A DNA stretch of 64,000 bases from Takakia lepidozioides (taxonomy: Eukaryota; Plantae; Bryophyta): the NCBI GenBank assembly GCA_030704615.1, contig CM060731.1, forward strand, positions 42,284,001 through 42,348,000. Reading direction: 5' to 3'. Positions 33,989 through 51,146 of the stretch are shown one piece after another. The first letter of the stretch is position 1. Every line of letters starts with the position of its first letter. Both the position numbers and the translations under genes were made by a program. Below the pieces are notes generated by a model. The model was not told where the DNA came from. It made no database searches and was given only the letters and a program-made list of their open reading frames with translations.

Positions 33989-36900
33989 ATGAAGACTAGA
34001 ACTCCAATAAACCGGCGGCCATGGTTCCAATTGGCGATTCTCTTTTTTGCTATGTGTGTAACGAGGGGAAGTAATGGGCAAACTTTACAGGGAAGCTGGG
34101 CGATTCTCTTAGAAAACGCTGGGATTGCAACAATGCATACAGCCCTCACCCGATTCGGGACAGTGATTTTTCTAGACCGCACGGATATTGGGGCCTCCCA
34201 GATCGCCCTGCCAGGTACAAACCTTTGCTTGTCTTGATGTGTGAGCAACCAATGGGACCTGAGTAGTACGTGGTGTTTGAGTTTTCCTTACTCAATTTTC
34301 AACTTTCTTGGAATCAACCATTATGAAGGACGGGATGAGAAGTGACCTCAAAGTTGGCAGTGTGCATGCTTGTCTTTTGAGACATAGAGAGAAATCGCTC
34401 AAAAGGGCACTTGGCCAGGCGCAGGTGTGCTCCCAGGGCCCTCGGTGGTACCTCGATTAGACATTCAGCTATGGACACACTCCAGCTACAGCAACTGGCT
34501 ACATTGAAATCCTTTTGAACTTCATCGGTCTTCACTTGTCAAGCTGTAAAGAGTTATTTGAGGTCATGAAAATATAAACATTTTCAATGTGAACTAGTTA
34601 GACACCAATGGTGATCCAAGATCAATGCGGCGGTGAAATCTCAGTCCAAGTGCAGAGTTGAGCATTAAAATCCATCTCTACCACTAGCTCTCATGAATCG
34701 ATTGTGATTGCAGGCGGCGCTTGCAGAAATGATGTGATGGATTTGATCCTCAAGCATGACTGTACTGCACATTCGGTACTCTTTGACCCAACTCTCAACA
34801 CAGTTCGACCACTCACCATCCTTACTGACACCTGGTGCTCCTCGGGGCAATTCATGTCCGATGGGACACTTGTTCAAACAGGTGGAGATCTTGATGGCTT
34901 CAGTAAAGTCAGGTAGAGTTGATCTTTCTGAAACAACTTGTTTTGAAGCAATGGCCAAGAATATTAGGTCTTTGAGACTCTTACCACCCCCTACACCAAC
35001 AACCTCCCACCACCATCACCACATGACTATGATGAAACTCTCATTTAGAGATTATTGCATTGAATCCTTCAGCTCTGGTTGCAAGTGCGGCCCACTATCA
35101 TCAGCCTCCTTTCTATTTTCCTCTCTTGTCAATTTTTCCATCTTCTCATGATGATATCAATGAAGATAACTTGCAACTTACCGACGTGAAGAACCAAACA
35201 TTTTCTTAAATGTCTCTGTTTCTGGTTGTCTCTGGTTTTCCTAGACTGTGTTACTGGCAGTGCATATCCGTCGCCAAGCTTGGGGCTACAGAGGCATTTG
35301 GTGCAATCAGCATTGTGTTTCCTAGTATGATGTATAAATTGTTGTACGTCAGTCATTCAATTCCCTGTAGCCGAATCGTCGTGGTCTGTCCGGGATCTAT
35401 TTCTAAACAAGGCTCCTTTACCCTGGCAGGCTGAAATGCTGAAAATGCCGGCACAACCCTCTTTGGAAGGTTAAATATCCTGTGACAACTATGCCCTTAA
35501 GTGTATGTAGAGCTCTCAGCTCTCTTTTTCTCTCACGCAAGGTATATAATATCTACTAGCATCACTCCCAAATCTAGATCCTGAATCTAATACCAGGACT
35601 GCACAATTTTGATACAGGATATTTTCGCCATGTGACCCTTCTGGAACATGTGATTGGGTGGAGTCTACGGAGCAGATCTTGCAAGCGGGCCGTTGGTACG
35701 CAACCAATCAGCTGCTGCCAGATGGACGCCAGATCATTGTAGGTGGGCGTAGCCAACCCACATTGGAATTCTTGCCCCCCAATGGCCAGGGGCTTATTAA
35801 CCTCCCACTGCTGAGTGCAACAAATGACAATGAGACTGACAACCTCTACCCATATGTCCATCTTCTCCCAGATAACACTCTCTTCATCTTTGCAAACAGG
35901 GACTCCATTGTCTACAATTACATCACAAACACTGTAGTGAAAACTCTCCCTACTATTCCAGGTGAACCACGCAACTATCCATCAGCAGGGTCATCAGTGA
36001 TGCTGCCCCTTGTTTCGTCTGCTGTAGTGGAGATCCTAATTTGTGGAGGAGCTCAATTGGGGGCTTACTTGAATCCAGCAGCACAGATGCCGTGTTCGTC
36101 CACATGTGGCCGGATAACCGTTACAGATGCTGCTCCAGCATGGACAATGGAGACCATGCCAATCAATAGGTGCATGGGCGACATGATCCTTCTTCCATCA
36201 CAGGATGTTCTCATTATAAATGGTGCTCAGCAAGGTACGACTCTCATTGCCAATTCTAGCATGCCACCCCCAGTTTTCATTGAATTTGCAAGTTCCCATT
36301 TCACATAGCCGTGGAAATACAATCTATATTTTTGGAGCTTCTAGCACATTAGCCAGGGACCTTGGCACTGGGACTGCAGGGATTCTGGGTTTTGTAGATA
36401 GATATTGTTGGTGGCTACGACACATGATCCAACTTCCCCTGGGTAGGATGACAAAGCTGAGGTTGTTATGTGAAGTTATCAACAGAGGGATGTAAGACAG
36501 TAGTTTTTCGTAGATCCAGAGGCCAGTGTATACTAATGCAGGATTCGGAGGTACAACTTGTATGAAGAGGGTGAGCATCAACATAGTAGACATATTTAAC
36601 AAGTTTTACTAATTAGTCTATGAACACAGGGTAAGCATCTCCTGTCCCTCTTTATTAAATGCACTAGAAAATTGAAGCGACACTTTGCATTGAAGAACTT
36701 TACTGGGCCTGTCTGGGAGCTCTGTTGCTCTGAAGCTGCCCATTCCCAGATGCAATGCGTCTTCTAGCATGATATCTGCACACATCCTTAGTGCATACAA
36801 GCACTTGTCCTCTTTTCTTGGTGTGGGCTGCTAGTGCTATAGCAATATCGGTCTGAGTTTCTTTACCCTGGTGGGAACTCCTGTCGAAGGGCTGCAGCAG

Positions 36901-38080
36901 GGTATCTTTCCTTAAGAGTGTACACATTCATAGCCAGCATTCACATGGAGCTCTCAATGAGTGCAAATTGGGGGCTGGGAAAATGCTGCTGAAAATGCTC
37001 TGTGGGCAGAGTTTAATAAGTACATTCTCTGTCCACCTCTTTGTGACAGTTCCATACTAATGTCACCCCTCACACGAGTGTTTACACGATCTTATGATTA
37101 CTTAATCCATCTCATGAAGGTGTTACTGAATTATCCATACATGGTGGTGCAGGATCACAGGGGTGGAACAACGCAGAGAACCCTGCATTGAACCCGTTGT
37201 TGTACAGTCCCTATTCTACAGCAGGGTTACGGTTCACAGTGTTGGCACCCTCGACCATTCCTCGCATGTATCACTGCACAGCCAACCTTCTTCCTGTAAG
37301 TATTGCCAGCCTTCCAGTCATTTAAGTCACTCTGAGGAACGTATGCTTTCCAAAAAGCTGGCAAACAAGTTAATGTGATTTATCTTGCTCAGAAGTTATA
37401 TCATATCATTCGGTTGGGTGATTGGTGGCCTTGGAGGCAGATGTATGCATTCTTGGTAAAATGTAGGCTTACATCGGAACTAAGTTTTGAGTTGGACATA
37501 TTGCTTTGTGGTGACATTACTCCCAAGTCCTGATTTGTCTTCTAGATCTGCCTATGGCACAACCATGACTTGTTGTTTGGAGCAAATCCCAGTAAGCTGT
37601 GTTCATATAACTTGACCTTTTTGCTGGTTCTTGCAGGATGGCCGTATTCTCATAGCAGGGAGCAACCCCCATGAATTCTACACTTTTGAGGGTTCCTTCC
37701 CCACAGATTTACGGATCGAGGCCTTCTCTCCTCCTTACCTCAGCCCTGATCAGAATGTGATGAGGCCCACCATCACAGTTTGCCCTGCTCAAATCACATA
37801 CAATACCACATTCACCATCACCATCACCACTACCTTGATTTTAACAGGCAGTATTCAGGTTAACCTTGTTAGTGTCCCCTTTGTGACCCATTCTTTTGGC
37901 CAAGGACAGCGTCTTTTACCTTTGAGTGCCACAGGTCCTGTACCAGTGGCCACAAATACATATCAAGTGACTGCAACAGCCCCACTGGACAATGTTCTAG
38001 CCCCATCTTCATACTACATGCTCTTTGCTGTCAACCAGGGGATTCCCAGTCAAGCTGCCTGGGTTCTAGTTTCGGTCTGA
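33989..38080 (+). CDS. Glyoxal oxidase / aldehyde oxidase GLOX-like copper radical oxidase (secreted). Exons 33989-34214, 34714-34912, 35618-36234, 37153-37295, 37637-38080
   Basis: Hydrophobic N-terminal signal-like segment; motifs AGIATMH, LDRTDIG, TDTWCSSG, RWYATNQLLPDG, NLYPYVHLLPD, RNYPSAGSSVMLPL, PRMYH, GSNPH, FVTHSFGQGQR; GT-AG junctions preserve frame. Confidence 0.95.
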
Positions 38081-38211: not shown

Positions 38212-38653
38212 CAGACGCACATACGACCACAGCCACTTTGTATATAGAATTTACTGCACTCCGAACAACAAAGGGAGAAGTGGTCACAGACGAATAGGTA
38301 GATCAGGTACACGGGAGTTCAATAGCAGTAAGCATCCAACAGATGGCCCGGTCGTTAGGGCACAAGGCTGCTGCCTTACAAGTGGCCCTGGGTTGAAAGC
38401 CACATAGGATCTCACCCATTATGGCCAACCCAGCTACAATAGCGGGGTAATTGGGTCAACCGATTACTTCATGTCTGGGTGTACCTGGGGACTTTGGAGT
38501 CCTTGGGGAGGGTTGGGCAACTGTATTGCCCCTGTCCACCTTCACCCCTGAAGGGCTATTGCCTTCCGCTTAGAAGTACACCGTAAGTTACACTTGCGTA
38601 GGCTAGAGTCACCTTCAGTAGGAGTGCTCACTTGCAGCCACATACTCAAGCAA
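38212..38653 (+). mobile_element. Candidate tRNA-derived SINE-like insertion
   Basis: A-box-like TGGCCCGGTCG (38344) and B-box-like GGTTGAAAGCC (38391); flanked by near-identical GAGGAGT(A/C)TGTAGA at 38198-38211 and 38658-38671. Confidence 0.35.
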
Positions 38654-40860
38654 ATAAGAGGAGTCTGTAGAAATCAAAACAGGCTTCTTCCAAGTCAGGG
38701 GGCATACATAAATCTTCCGCACTGTAGGTTTATGTGTATCCTTGGCTAGCAGGCTTAGCACCTTTTTTGTCACATGAGTGGGAACAGGAAAGCTGATTAC
38801 CTGACCTCGACTGACTTCCAGTAACGCCCATGAAGGGTGACAAGCTAGTGTTTTCTGTTCCTTGAACGGGAATTTGAACTCCAGAACTGTAGATGTTCTT
38901 AAATAACCTCAAATTTGAGACCTGTCTTGGAACTGTGAGACATCTCCCATGAATGACTTGAGGCCCTCCAGTTGCATGTTGATAGCATACACTTCATCTC
39001 TTTGGTGGAGAGGCAAGACGAGACATAGACGTTCTTGACATATTCTTTCTTCTTTTGGCATTCTTTTAGCATTCCATACTGTGAAGCAGGGCAGCTCTTT
39101 TCTTGCCCACCAATGTGAACAGCGAATCTGCATTCTATATGCTTCCATGGTGCACAGAAATGTTATTGCGTTGTCAGTTGCCTGGGTGACCATTCACAAA
39201 TATCCCTGGAGTAACGTACCTCAATGGAGTAGTGAGTGATTGTCATCTTTTCCTCGGGAACCTTCCAGTATACGAGTTCTTGTGAATTTCAACAACTTAT
39301 TACACTTCGTTGTTTGGGTTGGATGATGCAAGCAGTTCCCGTATCTCTCAATGCCTTTCCGCAAGATTCCTAAGACTCTCGCAACACTACTTCTCCAGGT
39401 TAGAATTGTTCCCAAACTGACAGGCCTAAATGGGGGAAAAATGAAGTAACAGTCCTAAACTTACTATGCAGTTGATTACTAGGACTGGGGTGTGCATAAC
39501 ATACCATGTTGAAGGGCCATTGAAGCAGTGATGGTCTCCAGTCTCCACCATCGTCTTCCACACCCACCGTCGGCTTCTTTCCCAGGCGGCGAGAGAAGGC
39601 GAGAGAAGGCGAGAGAATACTCATCCGTCCAGATATGTTCATCCATCTATGGGAATATACACATATATATTTCGTTGGGGAAAAGAACAAATGTTTTCTC
39701 GTGCGCGAGGGTCCCGAGAAGCTAGGGCGGAAGCGAAGGCGAGGGAGACGAGCATACTTACCGCAGCAGGTCTGGCGTGGCGCTCTGATTTGTTTGCACA
39801 GAAGAATCGGTGCAGGAGCGGCGGCAGGTAAGCTGGCAAGGATCCTGCGTCTGTATCTTTTCTGTTGATCATTATCTTGAACTTTGTAATAGCAGCGGAC
39901 GGTTGTCTTTCGAGGTTTCGGTGGTTAGATTAGACTGTAACCATGTGTGTCTGCTTTTAGTGAGCAGACGCGTATGTGTGTGGTATTGGTCGTTTGGTGC
40001 GGAGATTTTATTCATATTTTTCCTCTAGGCGGGTCCCTTGCTGATCTGAGGGCCATGTCTTTTCATTCTTGAGCTGTTTTTTGCTTAGTTCGGGATGATC
40101 TCGAGTTTGTGTTTATCCTGGATCGCCTGTGTTTGATAGAGTAGTACCGAACCCTAACAAATTCGGTCTGGCGGTGACTGGCGATTTGCGTAGTTCAGCT
40201 ATGGTGTGACAGTTCGCTTGCCCCAGCCATGCGTGTGTCTATCCTCGCCATACAGAGTCTCTCAAACCTCTTTCGAAGAGTACATAGGTCATCGTTGGCT
40301 GATCTTCGTGTAAAGCCCGCCTTCTGTGCTGTTTTCTGTAAAGTCTGTTCTGCGGAACGGCGTTGTTAGTCTTTGGAGGTGTGACTACCTTTGTGCAAGG
40401 GGTCTGTTAGCACATGGGAGCGTGTCACGCATGTTTTGCTGAAACCTGCGACAGAGTTGGAGTGGGTTCAGGGGCTGAGAAACGGCGTGTAGATCAACTA
40501 TGGATGGTACTCGTTAGATCGAGATCAGACGTAGAGAAGGAAAGCGTGTGGATACTCAGAGCACATCGTATGAGAAGGTTTTACAGTAGCAAGTGTCCTT
40601 CTTAAGAGTTGTTATGAAGATGTACTCCCAGCATGAGTCAGAAGTGCATCTGACCGATTCCCTGTTAGTCTGAGGGAGGGCACGGAGGGCATTTAGCTTA
40701 GACTGTAGCTTCCATGGAAGGTATAAGTTTATACAATCTTTTTTCATGCGATTTGCACTTTTCAGGGAAGGATTTGGAGCAGTAGAGGACGTGTTAAGTG
40801 GTTAATTGTCACTTCAACCAAGAAGCCGGTGCGGCCTCGTTATCAGATAAGTAAGGCAAG

Positions 40861-43800
40861 CTGGCGAGAGTCAGACCAGTGTTCTGTGGCAACTTTGAGT
40901 ACGATGCACGACAATCCGAGATTGAGCGCATGTTTACGTCCTTCGGAAAGGTGGACCGTGTTGACATGAAGACAGGCATGCCGCCTCTCCCCATCTATTT
41001 TCTTGCCCAAGAGTTTATTGTTGTGTGCATGATTCTCTTGTTTTTTAGTCTCTGTGTTGTCTCCTCTGCACTGGCAGAGATGACAATCTCTATGTGACTG
41101 TGAGATTGCCTTGGTTGACGTTGAGCCCTTCACCATTTCAGAGAACATGTCATAAAACTTTGTTTCTTTCTCTATTTGTCCCATGCCCTTTGGTAGGGTT
41201 TGCAATTGTCATGCCTCTGCCATTGGCCAGTTTCCCCTGCTGAGTGAAGAAGTATGCTGTCTTCAACTTCTCAGAGTGAATGATGTAGATCACTCTTTAT
41301 CCAGCTTCAAGCAGTTTCTACAAAGTCGACTTTCACATTTATCTTAAGTTGCCCATTACACCACTTGAATGTCTAGAAGCTTGATGCTTGTCCTAATCAG
41401 GGAGCATTTCAAACAAAGATATACTAGAAACAGGTAACTCGTCAATTTCATTTTAGGCCAGGGGGAGAATAAATTACTGGACAAATTATTAGCAGTGAAA
41501 AGCTTAACCAACTTAATATAGATGCACAATAATCAAATGAGTGCAGACCATTGTATTGCTATAGAGGTCTCTTTTTGTTTGTTGCTTCTGTTGGTGTGTG
41601 GTTGAAACTTCTTTGTTTCTTCTTCATTTGAGCAAACATAGGCAATCACAAAAGTGGTTTTGTATGAAGTAATAGGATACTCAGGGATGGGTGTGGGAGC
41701 GCAGGCGTGAGCATAGAGAGTTTGGCAGCTCTCATGCTGGCATCTTGGCTGATGCCCCATTTCTTCAAGGCTTCTACTGCCAACACTTGGCTTCAGTCTC
41801 TACCTGATTCTGACCACACCAGTTATCCAACAAAACCTGCAGAAGACAACTTGCATGCACCTTATTATCATCAGATCATCACACTTTTCAATCCATGCGT
41901 GACTTGTCTTCTTTGTGGTGCTGATGTCAGCATCTTCGTATTCACCTCAGCATGCTCGTTGTCTTCGTCATCTTCTGATGCGTGCGTGCAAGGGCTGGTC
42001 ATCTAGATTGTCACCGCCTAAGAGAGTTTATCACCTCAGCATCTCCAATGTCCACCTCAGGATCTGCGTTGTCCATGTCAGCATCTCTGTTTGTCCACAC
42101 GTGCCAGTCGTGTAGATTGTCATCAGACTTCAGACTCGAAGAGGGGAGCAACGTGATCGGTGCAAGCTTGGCTGACCTCTGTCTCTTTGTCAACAGCTCA
42201 CACCTCACTAGACTTCAGTCAATTCATTATTGGCATTCGTGCCACCTGCTTCCTGACATTCCTGACATTGTGCAGCCAACTGTCAACCAATGGTCGCCAG
42301 GTGTTGTTTATCAAGTTTTCCATCATCTCAGATTGATCAAGATTTAACACTTATGAGAGTGGTACTGAATGAAAACAAGTGGCTAAATGTGTGCTACACA
42401 GGCCCAGCTTTTATGGGGTAGACATTGCTAGGGTTGTGATTTCCTTGAGCTCCCTGGATTGGTTGAATGGGGGGTTACTGGATTGAAAGTTGCAGTAGCT
42501 GGTAAGTAAATCACCATATCTGCTAATACTTGGAAATGAGAGTTTTTCATTGTAAATCTCAAAGCTCGGGCTCAGAGCATCAAGTCTGTCATTGTCCCTG
42601 ATGGACACTCACCTATCCTTTTCATTACTATCCGAATTTTCTTTGGGTAAAGTTCTCTGATATTTTTATTTTGGTTGGCCCAGGCTTTGCGTTTGTCTAC
42701 ATGGATGATGAACGCGATGCAGAGGATGCAATTCGCACTCTGGACAATACAGAGTTCGGTAGGCAGCGCCGTCGGCTGTGTGTCGAATGGGCCAAGGTAC
42801 GTTATGGGGATTTACATTGTTGCTGAAGCTATTTTTTGGCTGTGTAGTGTGCTTTTTTCTTGGTCAGCTTTGACAGTGTGGTAGACTTCAGAGATCTTGA
42901 CTGTTTCTTGATTTTGATTGGACAGAAGTATGTGTATTCCAACATGGTCTATCTTGTTTGTATGGATGACTGCATTTTGAGTGTGGCAATGGGATGGTGT
43001 TGGATATTTCTGGAATAGTACAGGAACATGCCGAGCAAATGACCTGTGTTATTTGTTGCAGCAAGCTGATGGTGCGATACGGCGGCGGGAGGATGCTCGA
43101 AGGAGTATCACCAAACAGAGACCCACCAAGACTCTTTTTGTGGTGAATTTTGACCCCATCAATACCCGAGTTCGTGACCTTGAGAGGCACTTTGAACCCT
43201 ATGGGAAGCTGGTCCGTGTGCAAATTCGCAAGAACTTTGGGTTTGTCCAGTACGAGACTCAAGATGAGGCCACCAAAGCCTTGGAGTGCACCAATATGAG
43301 GTATTTCGATGCAGATTTATTGACCAAAAAGGTTTTTCAGGTTAAGTTAGAGAACATATGTTCTGCTTGAGTTTTGTAGAAGGTTATTGGCGTTGATACA
43401 TCATTCAGAGGGTTATTTATCCCAAATACTCCGGCAAGTTGAATTGTACTTCCACACAGAGTCCTTGTAACTGCTTGGACCTAGTAATCACTCTAATTAA
43501 TTGACGTTTTCACCAATGGTCACAACTGGAATATGCTCATATACAAATCAGAGGAATGCCTAGTTGAGTTTGACAATTTTGGATATTGCTAAGTATGATA
43601 TTATCACAATTGAGCTCTACAGAATTGGCAGCTTTAAGGAGTTGTTTGTCTCTCAAATTTTGATTCTATTAAAGCTGCTACCGGAAAAGGGTAGAAGAGA
43701 TTTTCAAGGATCTGAATCTTAGTCCACTAGCCATGACCCTGCTGGATAAATCTGGCTTAGAAGCTGAAGTTTCCGAAGCCATGTCTATTGCCAGGAAATT

Positions 43801-45321
43801 GTCTGAAGAAAATAAAGTTAGGCAGAAAACTTCCCTGAACCTGTTTCCAGTCTGTGACATGGGTGAGGCCATCATGGATGACCTCAAGGGTCTACCCACC
43901 CTCGGCACTAGACTGAAATTCAAACTCAGGGCGGGTAGCCTACCTTTGAACAACAAACAGTCGCAGAGAGGAAAGGGGGATTGTAAGTGCCCGTTGTGTG
44001 GGCAACCTGAAGACAATATTCACTTCCTGATTCATTGTCCTGGGTACTCTCACCAATGGGACACCCTCTTCAATTCCATCAAGGAAATTGTGCCTGTACC
44101 TCTGTTTAACAACTTTGAAAATCCTGAGGCTGAGCCAAAAACCCAGGCCCTTTTGGGGTCTAGCTATTGGGCAAATCACACACATCAGATTGATGCTTGT
44201 GTGAAGGGATTTCTGGAGGATATCTGGAAATCTCGGATCAACTGTTTATTTCAAGGTAAATCATACTACCGGTGTCAGCCCCTGACAAAGGTAGTTTCTG
44301 TCCCTTTATGTTCCGTTCAAACTGGGCGTGGGGTCAATGGCCACAAGGCTACGGCACACAATGTCTTATGAGTACAATCTATTAAAGCTGCTTCAAGCTT
44401 AAGGTTAAGAAGTTTGCAGGTTTCCATCGTCTTTTCGATTTTTTTTGGGCCCACTTCAATGTGACTTCTCTTGAAGTTTTGTGCTTATGTGTTGTTTTCA
44501 CCTTTGCTCTTCTAACCTTGAATATGCTATTTGATTTTGTCATTGTTTACGTCTCAAATGTCCATTCAGAGTTGACAAGGCTCTCACATTGATGCATATT
44601 TTTCTTAGTTGCCGCGACATTATTTGATTTGTGTTGCCTTTCTTCCTCCACTAGAATTATACAGTTTCCAACCTAGACTACCTGGTTGACTGACGCGTAA
44701 GCTTTCCTATTATGCAGCAAGGTGATGGATCGAGTGATAACTGTTGAATACGCAGCACGTGAGGATGGCGAACCTCTAGCCAGTGGTGGCTACGGAGGCC
44801 GAGGTGCTAGCCCTGGTCGGTATGGAGGGACAAGGGGAGTTTCAAGGGGCAGTCCTGACTATGATCGGGCACGAAGTCCTCCCCGAGGTGGGGGACGACA
44901 TCGCAGGTGAGATTCTGGTTCAATCCTTCCTCAGAAAAGAACAGGTTGAATATATCTTTTGATCAAGAGAGACAACTGATCGGAGGGTTGTGAGGACAGT
45001 ACTCTGAAATGAGTGTAGTAGCACATCCTGTTGTACCCCTGAAATGTTTGATTGTGGTTGCTCTCTTTTGTGAAGCTAGTTTGACATGCATGGATCTGTA
45101 ACTAGGCACATGAGAGCACCGTATGCTTCATTTAAGTTGTCAGGAGAGTCTTCCGTGCAATTAGGAATGTTTGCCACAGGGAAGATCTTTTGGAGCTTTG
45201 CCACAGAATATGGAGTTCCGGACCAACCAGTGTGGTATTCCTTTTGTGCAGCCGATCACCGGCTCGACGCTATCGGAGCCGCTCTCCTGACTACCGGCCC
45301 TATTTGGGATCCCATCGTTAG
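40861..45321 (+). CDS. Plant RS-subfamily serine/arginine-rich splicing factor (RS31/RS40-like; two RRMs plus RS tail). Exons 40861-40975, 42684-42796, 43062-43300, 44718-44906, 45252-45321; probable 5'-UTR intron 39828-40765
   Basis: [28 protein letters not shown]|[21 protein letters not shown]|...[36 protein letters not shown]|..[28 protein letters not shown]; first coding intron is GC-AG; start codon is apparently CTG. Confidence 0.92.
43680..44377 (+). mobile_element. 5'-truncated LINE (RTE-X-like C-terminus) in an intron of the SR gene
   Basis: Perfect 15-bp TSD TCTATTAAAGCTGCT (43665-43679, 44378-44392); open ORF 43733..44371 with LRAGSLPL...CPLC...[13 protein letters not shown]; clade assignment is inference. 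Confidence 0.85.
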
Positions 45322-45954: not shown

Positions 45955-48900
45955 TGTGAAGCCTCAAAACGAGCCTGAAGCATATACTCCTTTCCTCTCA
46001 AGAAACAAGTTTTCACAACAAAGGTGCAAGTGGAAAGAGCAGCCGATGCGTGAGAGGAGGATCAAACACGAGGATCTGACACACAGGAGCTCTCATCCAA
46101 AGCTTGGACACCAAAATTACATGTACACTAACACCCGAGTTGACCTTCTGTCAGGGCAAGGTCTTTATACAAAAGCCCTAGCTTTAGTTGCCCGCCGCGT
46201 GGGGAGGCGTCACAAGCCAAAACCTACGGCGTCGCATTGTTACCCTAGATCTGATGAAGGGCCAGGATGTGGCCACCAGCCAAAACTAACCCTAACCTAG
46301 ATATCATTGTAAGCCCCCGCCGCACCTATGAGTTAAGAAGTCAATTAGGTTAGCTAATTGGTGTTAATGGCAAGGTGACGGCCGCACCTGCCGAATACAT
46401 CGCTCGTTAGCTAACCGGTGATTAACTGACATTAAAATTTGTAACGGGGAGAGGCCGAGATTTAACACCTCCTCCATGGAGGTGTTAAACCTCGGTCAGC
46501 AATTAAAAGTCGGGCAGCGGAGCAAGCGTTCTCGTGACCTCGTTCTATCATGAATCAGAGTGCAGGGGCCATCGCATTCTTGATCAACTCGTTCTATCAA
46601 GTGACTTGTTGGGAGCAATCCAACTTTTCCGCTGGTCTATCAAATATACATTCGGATTATGAATTTGTACGTTGCATGTGGGCACAGTCGAGAACCGAGA
46701 GCTAACAAATACCTTCGACAAGAAGCTTCAAGGCACATAATCATACACACTTATTCCAACCCTGCAGGCACTCTAGACCGCATGGTTGATCTGATTCTAT
46801 TTCTGCTCTTTGACGTGCACCAACACGAAGCTTGGCTACACCTTGCAAAACTTGACTACACAAAGGTTTTGTCGCTAGCTGTTCTACACTTAGTTATTCT
46901 GTTGATGGCAATATGCATTAATGTGGGGGATGTAAGCATCCAGGCAACAGTGATGTGTAACCTCGCAGTGATCTTTAAGGGGAATCCGCCATCCTGGCTG
47001 GGCTGAACCCTCCTTCTTTTGTCAAGGAGATACAAAAGCCTTTCTACGAAGCGAATGCACAGCTGTTGACGATTAATGGACTTTTACCAGCACTTGTTGG
47101 GGCCTTGGCTGCAATCAGTGGCCATTGATACTGCTCAAGAGAGCTGAGTCTTACAAAACACAAACTCAAACATACGACTACTAGGCAACCTGCATGTAAT
47201 CGCAGTGGATCACATAAGGGCAGTCTAGGAAAGTTTTGAACTTGGTGCTTTGATTACAAAGTACATCTTCAGTCATATGCTGTGGGTATGAAGACCTTAC
47301 AAAGAGCCAGGCTTTAATTATCAAAGTCTGGTATTTTGCTTCATCATGTCTTTGGGCTCCTCCATATTGTAGCTGAGACTATGCATTCTTGGCAAGGCAT
47401 CCAGTCATCATACAACAGATCAGGCCGGTTTGCTAAGCCCTGTCTGGATTGGTTAAAGTGGACCCTACTATTTTTCATGTTTGTTTGGAGGTCCCTGGCA
47501 TTTATTATTAGCTTAAAAACGGCTGCCATATGTGAATGAAGATCTTGCATATTTCATAATGATATAGGTTGGACAGAGCCACAGACATAGCTTGTGCGCA
47601 CGGGAGGAGAAGAGATGGCGATGTCGTCGTGCGGGCAGGAAATCAGTTCGGGCAGCAGCGCGGCTAACAAACCGCGTTGCACCAGTTAAACTTAACTAGC
47701 ATGTGCGGCCGGCGATTAATTAGCTATCCGGCCAGTCATGTAACTGACCGGTTAGCCTTCGGTTAGCTAACCGGCAGGTGCGGCCGGGGCCTAACTGTTT
47801 AAGGGCATTATACGCCAAAAAATTATACCATGGATGTGTATCGCCGTTTTGGATGAAACAGGCCATTTCTAGCCAAAGCCATCACATCTGCGAAGCCTAC
47901 CCCCCACGAAAAATCCTGAGCTCCGCGAAGGAAAACAATAATAAGGAAATATCACCCTCCACTGCTGGGTGAAAAACCTACCAAGATAAAACTTGGCACC
48001 TGCAAGTTGGGCCGAGGACAAAACCCTTGGCTAGGAAAACCGTGCAGGGAGTACAGATGGTGATATATACCAGGAAACTAAAATGTTTCTAAGTCCTAGA
48101 AAGGTCAAGTCCTAGGACCCCAATAGTCACCATCCGCAAACTAAGACTAAGCCGCTGAAGAGAAGATCAAGCTAAGGTAGATCGGCTAAGAAGATCAAGA
48201 CATCATCCCACCGTGCGCCCCTCCACATTGATACATGTAAGATCAAAAACTAGCTCGGAATGTACTAAGTCCGTCAAGGAAACAGGTTCATCCCGCACTT
48301 CAGTATTAGAGCCTTGTAGAAGAAGGAGAGCACGTTGCCCACATAAAATCTGATAGATCAAGAATGGACCGTCGATCTTGAGCTTAGATTTGCATGCATG
48401 CTTGCCATGCTGTAATCGAACACACATGGTCTGTCCCACCTGAAACAGGTTAGAATACTTGACACGCTTGTTAAAATTACGGGCCTGAGTTCGCTGAGCC
48501 TTACCAATATTCGTTTTGGCATCATGGATAGACACCGCATGTCGAGCATGAAGATCTTCAACAAATGTATCAAGATCAACCGGATCAGCAACAGTAGAGA
48601 TAAGAGGGGTAGAATGCAAAGGAGAAACACATTTGCGACCATACAACAACTTAAAATGAGTCTTCTTGGTGTTAGCATGCTCGACGGTGCGATAAGCAAA
48701 GAGAATAGGGGGAAGAAAGGTATCCCACTCCCTGGTAAGTGCGCCATTCTTCTCCAACATTCGACAAAGAGTTTGGTTGAAGCGTTCCGTAAGGCCATTG
48801 GTCTGGGGATGGTATGGGGTTGTGGTGGAATGCTTAACACCGAAATTGAAGCAAACCACCGTGAGGAGCTGGTTACAAACCTCCTTGCCCTGATCCGTTA

Positions 48901-51146
48901 GTACCTCCCGAGGACACCCATGCCGCATAAGGATCTCATTGAAAAAGAACTGAGCTACAGCATCACTAACCTTGGAACGCAAAAGACCGGACTTCTACCC
49001 ACTAAGTCAAGTAGTCGGTAGCAACACAAAGGTAGCTTCGACCCTTTGATGTGAGTGCGAGGGGTCCTACTAAGTCAATGCCAATACGAGCAAAAGCATG
49101 GGTGACAGGCAAAAGCTGCAACTCATACAAGATCCGGGCCCTAGGGAGAGCAATGTTAGCACGACAACCTTCACACTTAGAGATGAACTTTGTGACGTCC
49201 CGGTGAATGCCCAGCCAATAGTAAACCACTTGGATACGAGCCACGGTTTTCTTGATACCAAGGTGACATGCATACAAGGAACAATGGAAACGCTCCAATA
49301 AAGCATTCAGCTGGCTCCGTGGTGGCACCTCCAAATAGCATGGCACTCCCCCTCTGGTGAGCTCCTTGAAAAGCTTATCACCCATGAAACGGTAAGTAGA
49401 CACATGATAGAGAATTTGTATACCACTCGGAAAGGCCAGCTGGCGAACGCCCTGATTGGCATCGCTGGAGTAGTGCAGCATGTAGCTGATCATCCATGAC
49501 TGCACTGCACATAAGAGGTAGACAATGGGTTTTAGAGAAGGTGGTCTGGAGTGCTTGCACCTATGATCTCCAGCCAGGGATACCTTCACCTCATTTGTTA
49601 CTATTCATGGACAGTCAAATCAGGCCTTGAGGCTCAAGCCAATAGTCACACCGGAGTGCAGCAGCTGAATTACAACATATTCGGGGGCCTAGGAAAGAGA
49701 AGAGTTGAAACACAACAAGGAACTTCCACCAAACTATCCGAATTCTCTCTAAGCAATAAATCCACCACACATACTAACACACGAGTAAATCAACCAAGAT
49801 CATCAAGAAGGCTAGACCAGCCCCAAGCAGCCAATATGCCATTGGAATCCAAGGCAAAGGGGTGCTGATCTGCACAAAGAAGGTTGAGAAGAGGGGCTGC
49901 ATCAGGAGGAGGGGCTGCATCAGCAGCAGCAAGGTCATCCAAGGTAACATAGGCTTGCTGACAGGAGGATCAACCCGTGTAAGCGCATCAGCATTTGTGT
50001 TTTCTTTGCTATTCTTGTAGACATATCCATGTCAAATTCCTGCAGGTACATAGCCCATCTAGCAAGTCTGCCATGAAGTTCATTTGGCTTAACAAGAGCC
50101 TTAAGTGGAAGATGATTAGTCTCTACCACAAACCGGTTGTCATGTAAATATTGCCTGAAATGCTTCACACCAAATACCAGGGCGAGACCCTCCTTATCAG
50201 ATATAGAATAATTTATTTCATGACGATCAAGACGGCGAGATGCATAAGCTATCACATGCTCCTTACCTTCTACAATTTGACATAAGATTGCAGAAATGGC
50301 AACATTTGAGACATCAGTCTGAAGCAAGAAAGATAATTCAAATTTGGGAAACATCAGGATGGGAGCTGAACACAAAGCCTTGTGAAGGGTGTCAAAGGCA
50401 GCTTGCTGGGAGAAGGTCCATTCAAACCTGGCATCCTTGCACAACACTTTGGTTAGAGGGTGAGCAAGCTTGGCAAAAAAAATTATAAAGCGCGTATAAT
50501 AAGAGGCCAGACCAAGGAAGGATTTGATACAATGTTTATCCCTGGGAATAGAATAAACAGACTCAAGCTTGGCAGGATCAGAAATCAAACCATCCTTAGA
50601 GAGGATATGACCAAGAAAATGTAGCTCAGGCATAAACAGCTCACACTTCTTTGGCTTCACTATGAGCCCTATTGTGCGCAATTTGCTGAAAACACGTTGC
50701 AGATCAATCAAGTGAGCATCAAAATTGGCCGAGTACACATTGATATCATCTACATAAATTAAGGCACATTCCCAGCGAAGATTACCCAAGACAATGTCCA
50801 TAAGGCATTGGAATGTGGAGGTGGCATTGCACAAACCAAATGGCATGGTCTCGTAATGGTATCTGCCCATGCGACATACAAATGAGGTCTTTTCCTTGGC
50901 TGCTTCAGTGAGATGAACTTGCCAAAACCTAGATGCAAGATCAAGAGAGGAGAAAATTGTAACACCATGCAATTAATCCAAGGTCTCATTGATCATGGGT
51001 AGTGGGTGGGCATCCTTCTTGGTGATGTCATTCAGTTTTCTGAAGTCAACACAGAAGCGGGTGGTGCCATTTTTCTTACCAACCAGGACAATTGGACTGG
51101 CCCAAGGAGAAACTGAAGGCTTAATCACACCAGCATCTAGCATTTT
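45955..51146 (-). mobile_element. 5'-truncated Ty3/Gypsy LTR retrotransposon (RT, RNase H, integrase, 3' LTR about 45955-48202)
   Basis: SPWASPIVLV..RFCVDFRKLN, MPFGLCNA, YVDDI, LQTDVS, H2C2 zinc motif, LTDQG, YHPQTNGLTERFN in RT-RH-INT order; purine-rich tract before TG at 48202; TG..CA LTR ends inferred because the 5' LTR is absent. Confidence 0.88.
46312..47791. mobile_element. Non-autonomous TIR element (PIF/Harbinger-like) nested in the Gypsy LTR
   Basis: AGCCCCCGCCGCACCT ... AGGTGCGGCCGGGGCC (2 mismatches), TA/TAA flanks, GTTAGCTAA subterminal motifs at both ends. Confidence 0.6.

What the first reader, a model, noticed from the sequence alone, without database searches (positions are those of the whole stretch)
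40852..40881. SR splicing factor with no ATG: candidate CUG (non-AUG) translation start
Seen: the RRM1 frame (..[10 protein letters not shown]) is closed upstream by an in-frame TAA at 40852-40854, and the exon starting at acceptor 40765 has no ATG before it. A CTG at 40861 sits in ideal plant start context (AAG CTG GCG: A at -3, G at +4, C at +5), just ahead of the point where RS-subfamily proteins begin (MRPVF..). The rest of the gene is intact across five exons. Known: CUG initiation occurs in some plant regulators, e.g. Arabidopsis FCA. Inference: translation-level dampening of a dosage-sensitive splicing regulator, layered on the alternative-splicing control described in the next finding.
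Basis: partly seen in the sequence, partly recalled or inferred. Interest (0 to 1): 0.78.

Follow-up and report, generated by a model that had tools for sequence, protein, structure and literature searches.

The report
Moss splicing-factor duplicate starting at CUG
One of two expressed copies of a splicing-factor gene in this moss has CTG exactly where its sister copy and related plants have the ATG start codon, so it is likely translated from this weaker start and would make less protein per message.

Summary
The gene is an intact plant RS-subfamily SR splicing factor (241 codons from CTG 40861) from a moss; it is most similar to Sphagnum. RNA-derived contigs from two runs carry the CTG, join exon 1 only to 40767 and have no AUG in the covered leader. 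They differ from the assembly at other sites, so CTG is not an assembly error. CTG sits exactly at the orthologous start: 13 of 13 moss loci (3 genes) have ATG there. New: both runs also express a ~90%-identical sister copy with ATG at that place, so CTG is derived in one of two old duplicates. Codons 2-23, before the first in-frame AUG, are still constrained (7 silent, 1 replacement change against Sphagnum). Best reading (0.62): CUG initiation gives full-length protein at reduced yield. Rival (0.28): recent start loss, tolerated because of the sister copy. Against special adaptation: the strong context is inherited and there is no downstream hairpin. Translation was not measured. Two fern sequences hint at a parallel AUG loss, untested at DNA level.

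The parts
39664..39670 (+). TATA-like box; would put the transcription start near 39695-39715, downstream of ATGs 39635, 39649 and 39691 (inferred)
   Evidence: the longest exon-1 RNA contig starts at 39714
39714..39827 (+). Exon 1, non-coding, the part covered by RNA (true 5' end not mapped); GT donor at 39828
   Evidence: joint 39824->40763, cut +3, GT..AG, in both runs
39772..39774 (+). Second CTG in good context (G-3, G+4, C+5); would open a 24-codon upstream ORF ending at TAG 40783 after splicing
   Evidence: untested
40767..40975 (+). Exon 2: 94 nt of leader, then the first half of RRM1; ends at a GC donor (40976)
40852..40854 (+). In-frame TAA closing the frame upstream
40861..40863 (+). 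CTG at the position of the orthologous ATG; likely start codon (context C-4 A-3 A-2 G-1, G+4 C+5)
40904..40969 (+). First AUG of the covered mRNA: out of frame, A at -3, 21 codons, stop at 40967-40969; predicted sink for ribosomes that scan past CUG
40930..40932 (+). First in-frame AUG (Met24), weak context (C-3, T+4); a start here would remove the first part of RRM1
40976..42683 (+). Long intron inside RRM1, with GC donor; an alternative GT donor at 42301 extends exon 2 and brings a premature stop at 41095 (78-aa product)
   Evidence: overlapping contigs 40948-41731, 41702-42301 and 42272-42709; joint 42296->42680 cut +4, both runs
42684..42796 (+). Exon 3, second half of RRM1
43062..43300 (+). 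Exon 4, linker and RRM2
44718..44906 (+). Exon 5, end of RRM2 and start of the RS region
45252..45321 (+). Coding part of exon 6, to the TAG stop at 45319-45321

Best explanation
This is one of two expressed copies of a moss RS-type splicing-factor gene; it has CTG where the sister copy and its orthologues have ATG, and it is likely translated from that CUG into full-length protein at reduced yield. Shown: gene structure, transcription, splicing, the CTG in two haplotypes, the ATG-bearing sister transcript, and constraint on codons 2-23. Inferred: scanning 40S subunits cross an AUG-free leader of about 210 nt, and a fraction initiate at CUG in the inherited strong context, giving the same M-A-R-V-R-P-V-F N-terminus as the sister copy. 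Those that pass it would mostly be absorbed by the out-of-frame AUG 40904 (21 codons) rather than make RRM1-truncated protein. The net effect would be a low-output duplicate, on top of the conserved unproductive splicing of intron 2. That selection keeps CUG in order to limit dose is a further inference (about 0.35 on its own).
For: (1) Position: 13 of 13 moss loci among the 23 fetched have ATG at exactly this codon (3 distinct genes). Named Marchantia, Riccia, Sphagnum, Ceratopteris and Adiantum proteins have Met there. (2) RNA: both runs carry CTG and splice 39827->40767 and on through exon 6. The 211-nt covered leader has 0 ATG against 3.7 expected from composition. (3) The runs differ from the assembly at 7 of 2,138 non-coding sites (0.33%), so CTG is shared by two haplotypes. 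(4) Codons 2-23 against Sphagnum-type L011: 7 silent and 1 replacement change (pS 0.49, pN 0.019), as constrained as between the two Sphagnum genes (0.43, 0.019). The sister copy differs at 11 of 116 nt; if this stretch had been free since the duplication, 12-17 replacements would be expected, P(<=1) < 1e-4 (assuming 8-10 of the 11 are silent). (5) A neutral single change of ATG gives CTG only 4-8% of the time. CUG is the most enriched and a more efficient near-cognate start in tomato and Arabidopsis, with a preference for purine at -3, G at +4 and A/C at -4 and -2, all met here (PMC7605272 passages). (6) The whole frame is intact, and its branch length (0.11) equals the median of the tree.
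Against: No ribosome profiling or peptide data. The context is inherited from the ancestral ATG, so it shows no adaptation. No helper hairpin downstream of CUG: the folds are weaker than shuffles, z +1.1 to +2.0. The constraint test cannot exclude an AUG loss within the last 0.06-0.09 substitutions per site. No moss orthologue shares the CTG (0 of 13 loci), and no close relative of this lineage was available. Coding polymorphism has no power: 1 silent and 0 replacement changes in 652 nt, P=0.19. Contigs drop rare isoforms and cannot fix the 5' end. The sister copy's ATG rests on the loose-end letters next to the aligned part, not on its full sequence.
Confidence: 0.62

Rival explanations
1. 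Recent start-codon loss tolerated because the ATG sister copy supplies the protein. The gene is still transcribed and spliced, but most ribosomes start at the out-of-frame AUG 40904 or at Met24/36/45, giving a short peptide or a protein without an intact RRM1. The gene is at an early stage of decay or truncation, and any CUG use is incidental.
For: An expressed ATG sister copy exists in both runs. All moss orthologue loci have ATG. The context is inherited and there is no hairpin. A one-base change explains it: A>C in AAG-ATG (the context of moss locus L012), or loss of the A from the sister copy's AGC-ATG (inference). Precedent for this reading: a Capsella RPL9 duplicate with TTG was suggested to be non-functional (PMC4679983 passage).
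Against: It needs the loss to be older than the split of two haplotypes yet young enough to leave codons 2-23 unchanged. That has a chance of 6-17% if the loss time is uniform on the branch, and less for whole-gene decay with 241 intact codons. The new codon is the best near-cognate one (4-8% by neutral change). Contig depth of this copy's exon 2 is not lower than the sister's (128 vs 58 in X1, 42 vs 32 in X2; a poor measure).
Confidence: 0.28
2. An AUG is supplied by isoforms not seen here: a longer 5' end that includes ATG 39649/39691 (or 39635), spliced to a downstream AG (40867-68, 40873-74, 40854-55, 40869-70 or 40878-79) that puts it in frame.
For: Such joins give open frames on paper. 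Contigs can drop rare isoforms.
Against: Only 39827->40767 is seen, in 2 of 2 runs. RNA cover of exon 1 starts at 39714 and 39779, downstream of all three ATGs, and a TATA-like box lies at 39664. The alternative AGs are in purine-rich sequence. The products would carry about 45-65 unconserved residues and most would delete the conserved A-R.
Confidence: 0.07
3. Assembly error, or C-to-A change in the RNA, so that the real message has AUG.
For: None found; raw reads were not available.
Against: RNA-derived contigs of both runs match the window at 40861-40863. The ATG-bearing contig is a different gene, with 11 differences in 116 nt and a different leader.
Confidence: 0.02

Closest known systems
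Plant RS-subfamily SR proteins (Marchantia MpSR6, Sphagnum RS proteins, Physcomitrium RS27, Arabidopsis RS31/RS40/RS41)
   Same: Two RRMs plus an RS region; 84-88% identity to bryophyte members; long, alternatively spliced intron between RNP2 and RNP1 of RRM1 (PMC1636356 passages; seen here).
   Different: Start codon is CTG. Of 443 stored homologues with the first RRM strand, 437 have Met within 6 residues upstream and 5 more within 7-10; only P0231 has none. This census is biased, because gene callers need a start codon.
Arabidopsis FCA (CUG-initiated RNA-binding regulator; Simpson et al. 2010, known to me only through passages of PMC6380273 and PMC7605272)
   Same: An RNA-processing regulator whose main frame starts at CUG followed by G.
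   Different: FCA's CUG use was shown experimentally and lies upstream of an annotated AUG. Here CUG replaces the family's ancestral AUG in one duplicate of one lineage, and use is not shown.
Non-AUG N-terminal extensions in plants (POLgamma2; the 14 conserved extensions of PMC6380273; the maize, rice and soybean set of PMC13096810)
   Same: Near-cognate start in strong context, leaky scanning.
   Different: Those add an extension to an AUG-started protein. Here there is no extension: the CUG is needed to make the normal N-terminus.
Start-lost duplicate, e.g. Capsella grandiflora RPL9C2 (TTG; PMC4679983 passage)
   Same: One of two gene copies has a near-cognate codon in place of ATG.
   Different: That pair differs by a single nucleotide (very recent). 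This pair is old (dS about 0.5-0.65), and the CTG copy is intact and expressed.

Membership tests
Plant SR protein, RS subfamily | Two N-terminal RRMs | tested here: met
   Pfam RRM_1 hits on exon 2 (24.8 bits) and exon 4 (43.7 bits), both above the cut-off of 20.7
Plant SR protein, RS subfamily | RS region of at least 50 aa with at least 20% RS/SR dipeptides (definition as quoted in PMC7105729) | tested here: met
   Last 51-56 residues: 21-24% of residues lie in RS/SR dipeptides; 17-18% over the last 65-71, so it is near the threshold
Plant SR protein, RS subfamily | No SWQDLKD motif in RRM2 | tested here: met
Plant SR protein, RS subfamily | Long alternatively spliced intron between RNP2 and RNP1 of RRM1 | tested here: met
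   Intron 40976-42683 with alternative donor 42301 in both runs
Plant SR protein, RS subfamily | Groups with RS proteins in a tree | tested here: met
   Inside the 6-row moss clade, 96/93; sister to the two Sphagnum genes at 90/61 (weak). The tree held 25 chosen RS-type rows and no other SR subfamily. All named top hits that carry a subfamily name are RS-type.
Genes with a non-AUG main start (FCA type) | No in-frame AUG ahead of conserved coding sequence in the expressed mRNA | tested here: met
   (for the covered leader; 5' end not mapped)
Genes with a non-AUG main start (FCA type) | Near-cognate codon in strong context | tested here: met
   CTG with A-3, G+4, C+5; context inherited
Genes with a non-AUG main start (FCA type) | Coding constraint between the near-cognate codon and the first in-frame AUG | tested here: met
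   pN 0.019-0.058 against pS 0.49-0.70 for three moss genes; cannot exclude a recent loss
Genes with a non-AUG main start (FCA type) | Near-cognate codon conserved across species | tested here: inconclusive
   0 of 13 moss loci have it, but none belongs to this lineage's duplicate; fern-like P0231 has Leu there, codon unknown
Genes with a non-AUG main start (FCA type) | Initiation shown by ribosome profiling, proteomics or reporter | not testable with these tools
   no such data available
Pseudogene / decaying duplicate | Stops, frameshifts, raised replacement rate or silence | tested here: not met
   Intact 241 codons, spliced RNA in 2 of 2 runs, ordinary branch length

The most novel reading that the evidence does not exclude
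Seedless plants have repeatedly swapped the AUG of RS splicing-factor genes for a near-cognate start: here in one moss duplicate, and independently in a fern lineage (P0231 reads K-L-A-S-I-R-P-I-F where Adiantum has K-M-A-N-I-R-P-I-F; the correctly spliced Pteridium transcript was called only from Met36). Start-codon weakening would then be a selected, convergent way to tune the dose of a splicing regulator, invisible to AUG-based annotation.
Probability: 0.18. Interest if true: 0.75.

Novelty: new variant of a known kind. Interest (0 to 1): 0.5.

Why it matters
Known plant non-AUG starts mostly add N-terminal extensions. A case where CUG has replaced the family's own AUG, next to an ATG sister copy with a nearly identical N-terminus, is a natural paired experiment on whether start-codon weakening is one route to keeping duplicates of dose-sensitive regulators. 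I found no report of a non-AUG start in a plant SR gene or in a moss nuclear gene in 9 literature searches (open-access library only, supplements not read). In practice, AUG-based annotation would truncate this gene and remove half of RRM1.

Tried and rejected
No whole genome is held for this window, so the sister copy's locus could not be read. No run is on record as RNA; X1 and X2 are treated as RNA because their contigs join exons at GT..AG sites and leave intron 1 uncovered. X1 and X2 share the same alternative letters, so they count as one haplotype, not two. Helper hairpin downstream of CUG: not found. Selection test on polymorphisms: no power. Context as evidence of adaptation: rejected as inherited. 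Exact look-ups of five exon-2 read-through translations of the window: 0 of 5 in the protein collection. Two further searches aimed at more Leu-start relatives (best 120 of 299 and 150 of 436 listed) found none beyond P0231; a related fern-like fragment, P0397, has Met near that position. Homologues called from the MDDER/MEDER Met (Psilotum, Coleochaete, Netrium, hornwort, Diphasiastrum) are mostly explained by alternative splice forms, since cluster mates have a normal Met start; Psilotum P0037 has no such mate and stays open. Earlier findings near this place, by sequence or by words: none. My first exon joins had off-by-one bounds for downstream exons; corrected. Only the leader and exon-2 results are used.
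Full report
Observation. The window reads TAA (40852-40854) GGC AAG CTG GCG AGA GTC AGA CCA GTG TTC, so the RRM1 frame is closed two codons above a CTG at 40861. There is no ATG between 40747 and 40903. With exon bounds taken from RNA joints, five coding exons give an uninterrupted 241-codon frame from the CTG to TAG 45319-45321.

Identity. Pfam finds two RRMs. The tail meets the RS-region definition narrowly and SWQDLKD is absent (definition from PMC7105729, passages). The best named hits are Marchantia MpSR6, Calypogeia, Riccia, Ceratopteris, Selaginella and Sphagnum RS proteins. In a tree of 25 chosen RS-type proteins the window falls in the moss clade (96/93), next to two Sphagnum genes (90/61, weak), at 88% identity and with a median-length branch. 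It is a moss RS-subfamily gene, probably from an early-diverging lineage.

RNA. Two runs hold the locus as contigs. Neither is recorded as RNA, but both join exons at GT..AG sites and leave intron 1 empty. Both join 39827 to 40767 and show no other acceptor for that donor. Both match the window over 40763-40977 except for T>G at 40840, so CTG is in the message. The runs differ from the assembly at 7 of 2,138 non-coding sites in X1 and share those alternative letters where both cover them, so CTG is present in two haplotypes. The covered leader (39714 to the CTG, 211 nt) has no ATG. The three upstream ATGs (39635, 39649, 39691) lie outside RNA cover, and a TATA-like box is at 39664. The 5' end is not mapped and contigs drop rare isoforms.

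Orthologues. A motif scan of metagenome contigs gave 23 loci. Thirteen are moss loci from three genes: two match named Sphagnum proteins and one groups with Physcomitrium and Ceratodon. All 13 have ATG at exactly the CTG codon. One alga-like locus also does, and the other nine start M-K-P three codons later. Marchantia and Riccia start M-A-R-M-R-P-V-F, Sphagnum M-A-R-I-R-P-V, Ceratopteris M-A-N-I-R-P-V-F. So CTG is the ancestral start codon changed by one base. G+4, C+5 and a purine at -3 also surround the ATG in these genes, so the good context is inherited.

Sister copy. At 80% likeness a second transcript appears in both runs. It aligns from 40862 to 40977 with 11 differences, and its loose end has A where the window has C at 40861, giving ATG in a different leader. 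The six listed differences are four silent changes and a Phe/Tyr change; the other five are not shown. Assuming 8-10 silent changes, dS is about 0.47-0.65, an old duplication. Contig depth is not lower for the CTG copy (128 vs 58; 42 vs 32), though this is a poor measure.

Selection. Codons 2-23 lie before the first in-frame AUG (Met24). Against three moss genes they show pS 0.49-0.70 and pN 0.019-0.058, like the Sphagnum pair (0.43, 0.019). If they had been free since the duplication, 12-17 replacements would be expected against at most one seen relative to L011 (P < 1e-4). A loss within the last 0.06-0.09 substitutions per site cannot be excluded; with a uniform loss time the chance of seeing so few changes is 6-17%. 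A neutral substitution in ATG gives CTG 4-8% of the time, while CUG is the favoured near-cognate start in plants (PMC7605272, passages). No stable hairpin follows the CUG (z +1.1 to +2.0). PMC13096810 lists flanking structure as a common feature of plant non-AUG starts (abstract), so this counts mildly against.

Mechanism. Most likely (0.62) a fraction of scanning ribosomes start at CUG and make the normal full-length protein. Those that pass it meet first an out-of-frame AUG at 40904 (A at -3, 21 codons), then weak Met24, then Met36 and Met45; these would give a short peptide or proteins lacking the first strand and helix of RRM1. The result would be a low-output duplicate. Initiation, reduced yield and any dosage purpose are inferred. 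The main rival (0.28) is recent start loss tolerated by redundancy; a Capsella RPL9 duplicate with TTG was read that way (PMC4679983, passage). Unseen AUG-bearing isoforms (0.07) and error (0.02) are minor.

Second layer. Intron 2 has a GC donor, also present in 10 of 10 genomic moss loci with an intact exon end, while the angiosperm-like and alga-like genomic loci have GT. An alternative donor at 42301 gives a premature stop at 41095 in both runs. Alternative splicing of this intron is known to be conserved from algae to flowering plants (PMC1636356, passages).

Possible parallel. Among 443 stored homologues with the first RRM strand, one unnamed fern-like fragment (P0231) has K-L-A-S-I where Adiantum has K-M-A-N-I. 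A correctly spliced Pteridium transcript was called from the Met36 equivalent at nucleotide 309. No DNA could be had for either, the Leu codon is unknown, and two aimed searches found no more. This is a lead only.

Comparison. CUG starts of main frames are known in plants, FCA above all (read only through passages of PMC6380273 and PMC7605272); most known cases add an extension to an AUG-started protein. Nine searches of the open-access library listed no report of a non-AUG start in a plant SR gene or a moss nuclear gene; a term search of PMC13096810 found no mention of moss, splicing or paralogs. Supplementary start-site tables were not read and subscription papers are not searched.

Verdict. 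A real feature and a new variant of a known kind. Interest 0.5; 0.75 if the fern cases prove convergent (probability about 0.18).

Noticed in passing
window 40976-40977; L002, L011-L014, L016-L018, L020, L022: The GC donor of the regulated intron in RRM1 is conserved in 10 of 10 intact genomic moss loci (3 genes), while the angiosperm-like and alga-like genomic loci have GT. A weak donor kept across mosses, competing with a distal GT donor.
   Followed up: partly
window 39772-39774 and 40783: A second CTG in good context in exon 1 would open a 24-codon upstream ORF ending 75 nt before the main CTG.
   Followed up: no
P0231; P0016 (Pteridium); P0037 (Psilotum): Fern or fern-like RS sequences that seem to lack Met at the orthologous start; DNA not available.
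   Followed up: partly
window about 43600-44380: Intron 4 holds a high-copy, transcribed repeat (contig depth in the thousands) with a 232-codon stop-free frame; no Pfam hit. It resembles the 3' end of a LINE-type element (recalled, not tested).
   Followed up: partly
window 35613-38080: Upstream neighbour is a glyoxal oxidase / galactose oxidase-like gene (PF07250, PF09118).
   Followed up: no
window 48203-50972 (minus strand): Frames resembling reverse transcriptase/RNase H and integrase of an LTR retrotransposon, in pieces (identified by recalled motifs).
   Followed up: no
L009: A Sphagnum-type RS gene copy whose exon 2 breaks off after ERMFT into unrelated sequence.
   Followed up: no
window 38500-39186: Contigs in both runs cover this stretch upstream of exon 1 at low depth; transcript of unknown origin.
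   Followed up: no
P0409: Seed-plant-like RS fragment with Ile in place of the start Met and degenerate sequence after exon 2; probably a decayed copy.
   Followed up: no
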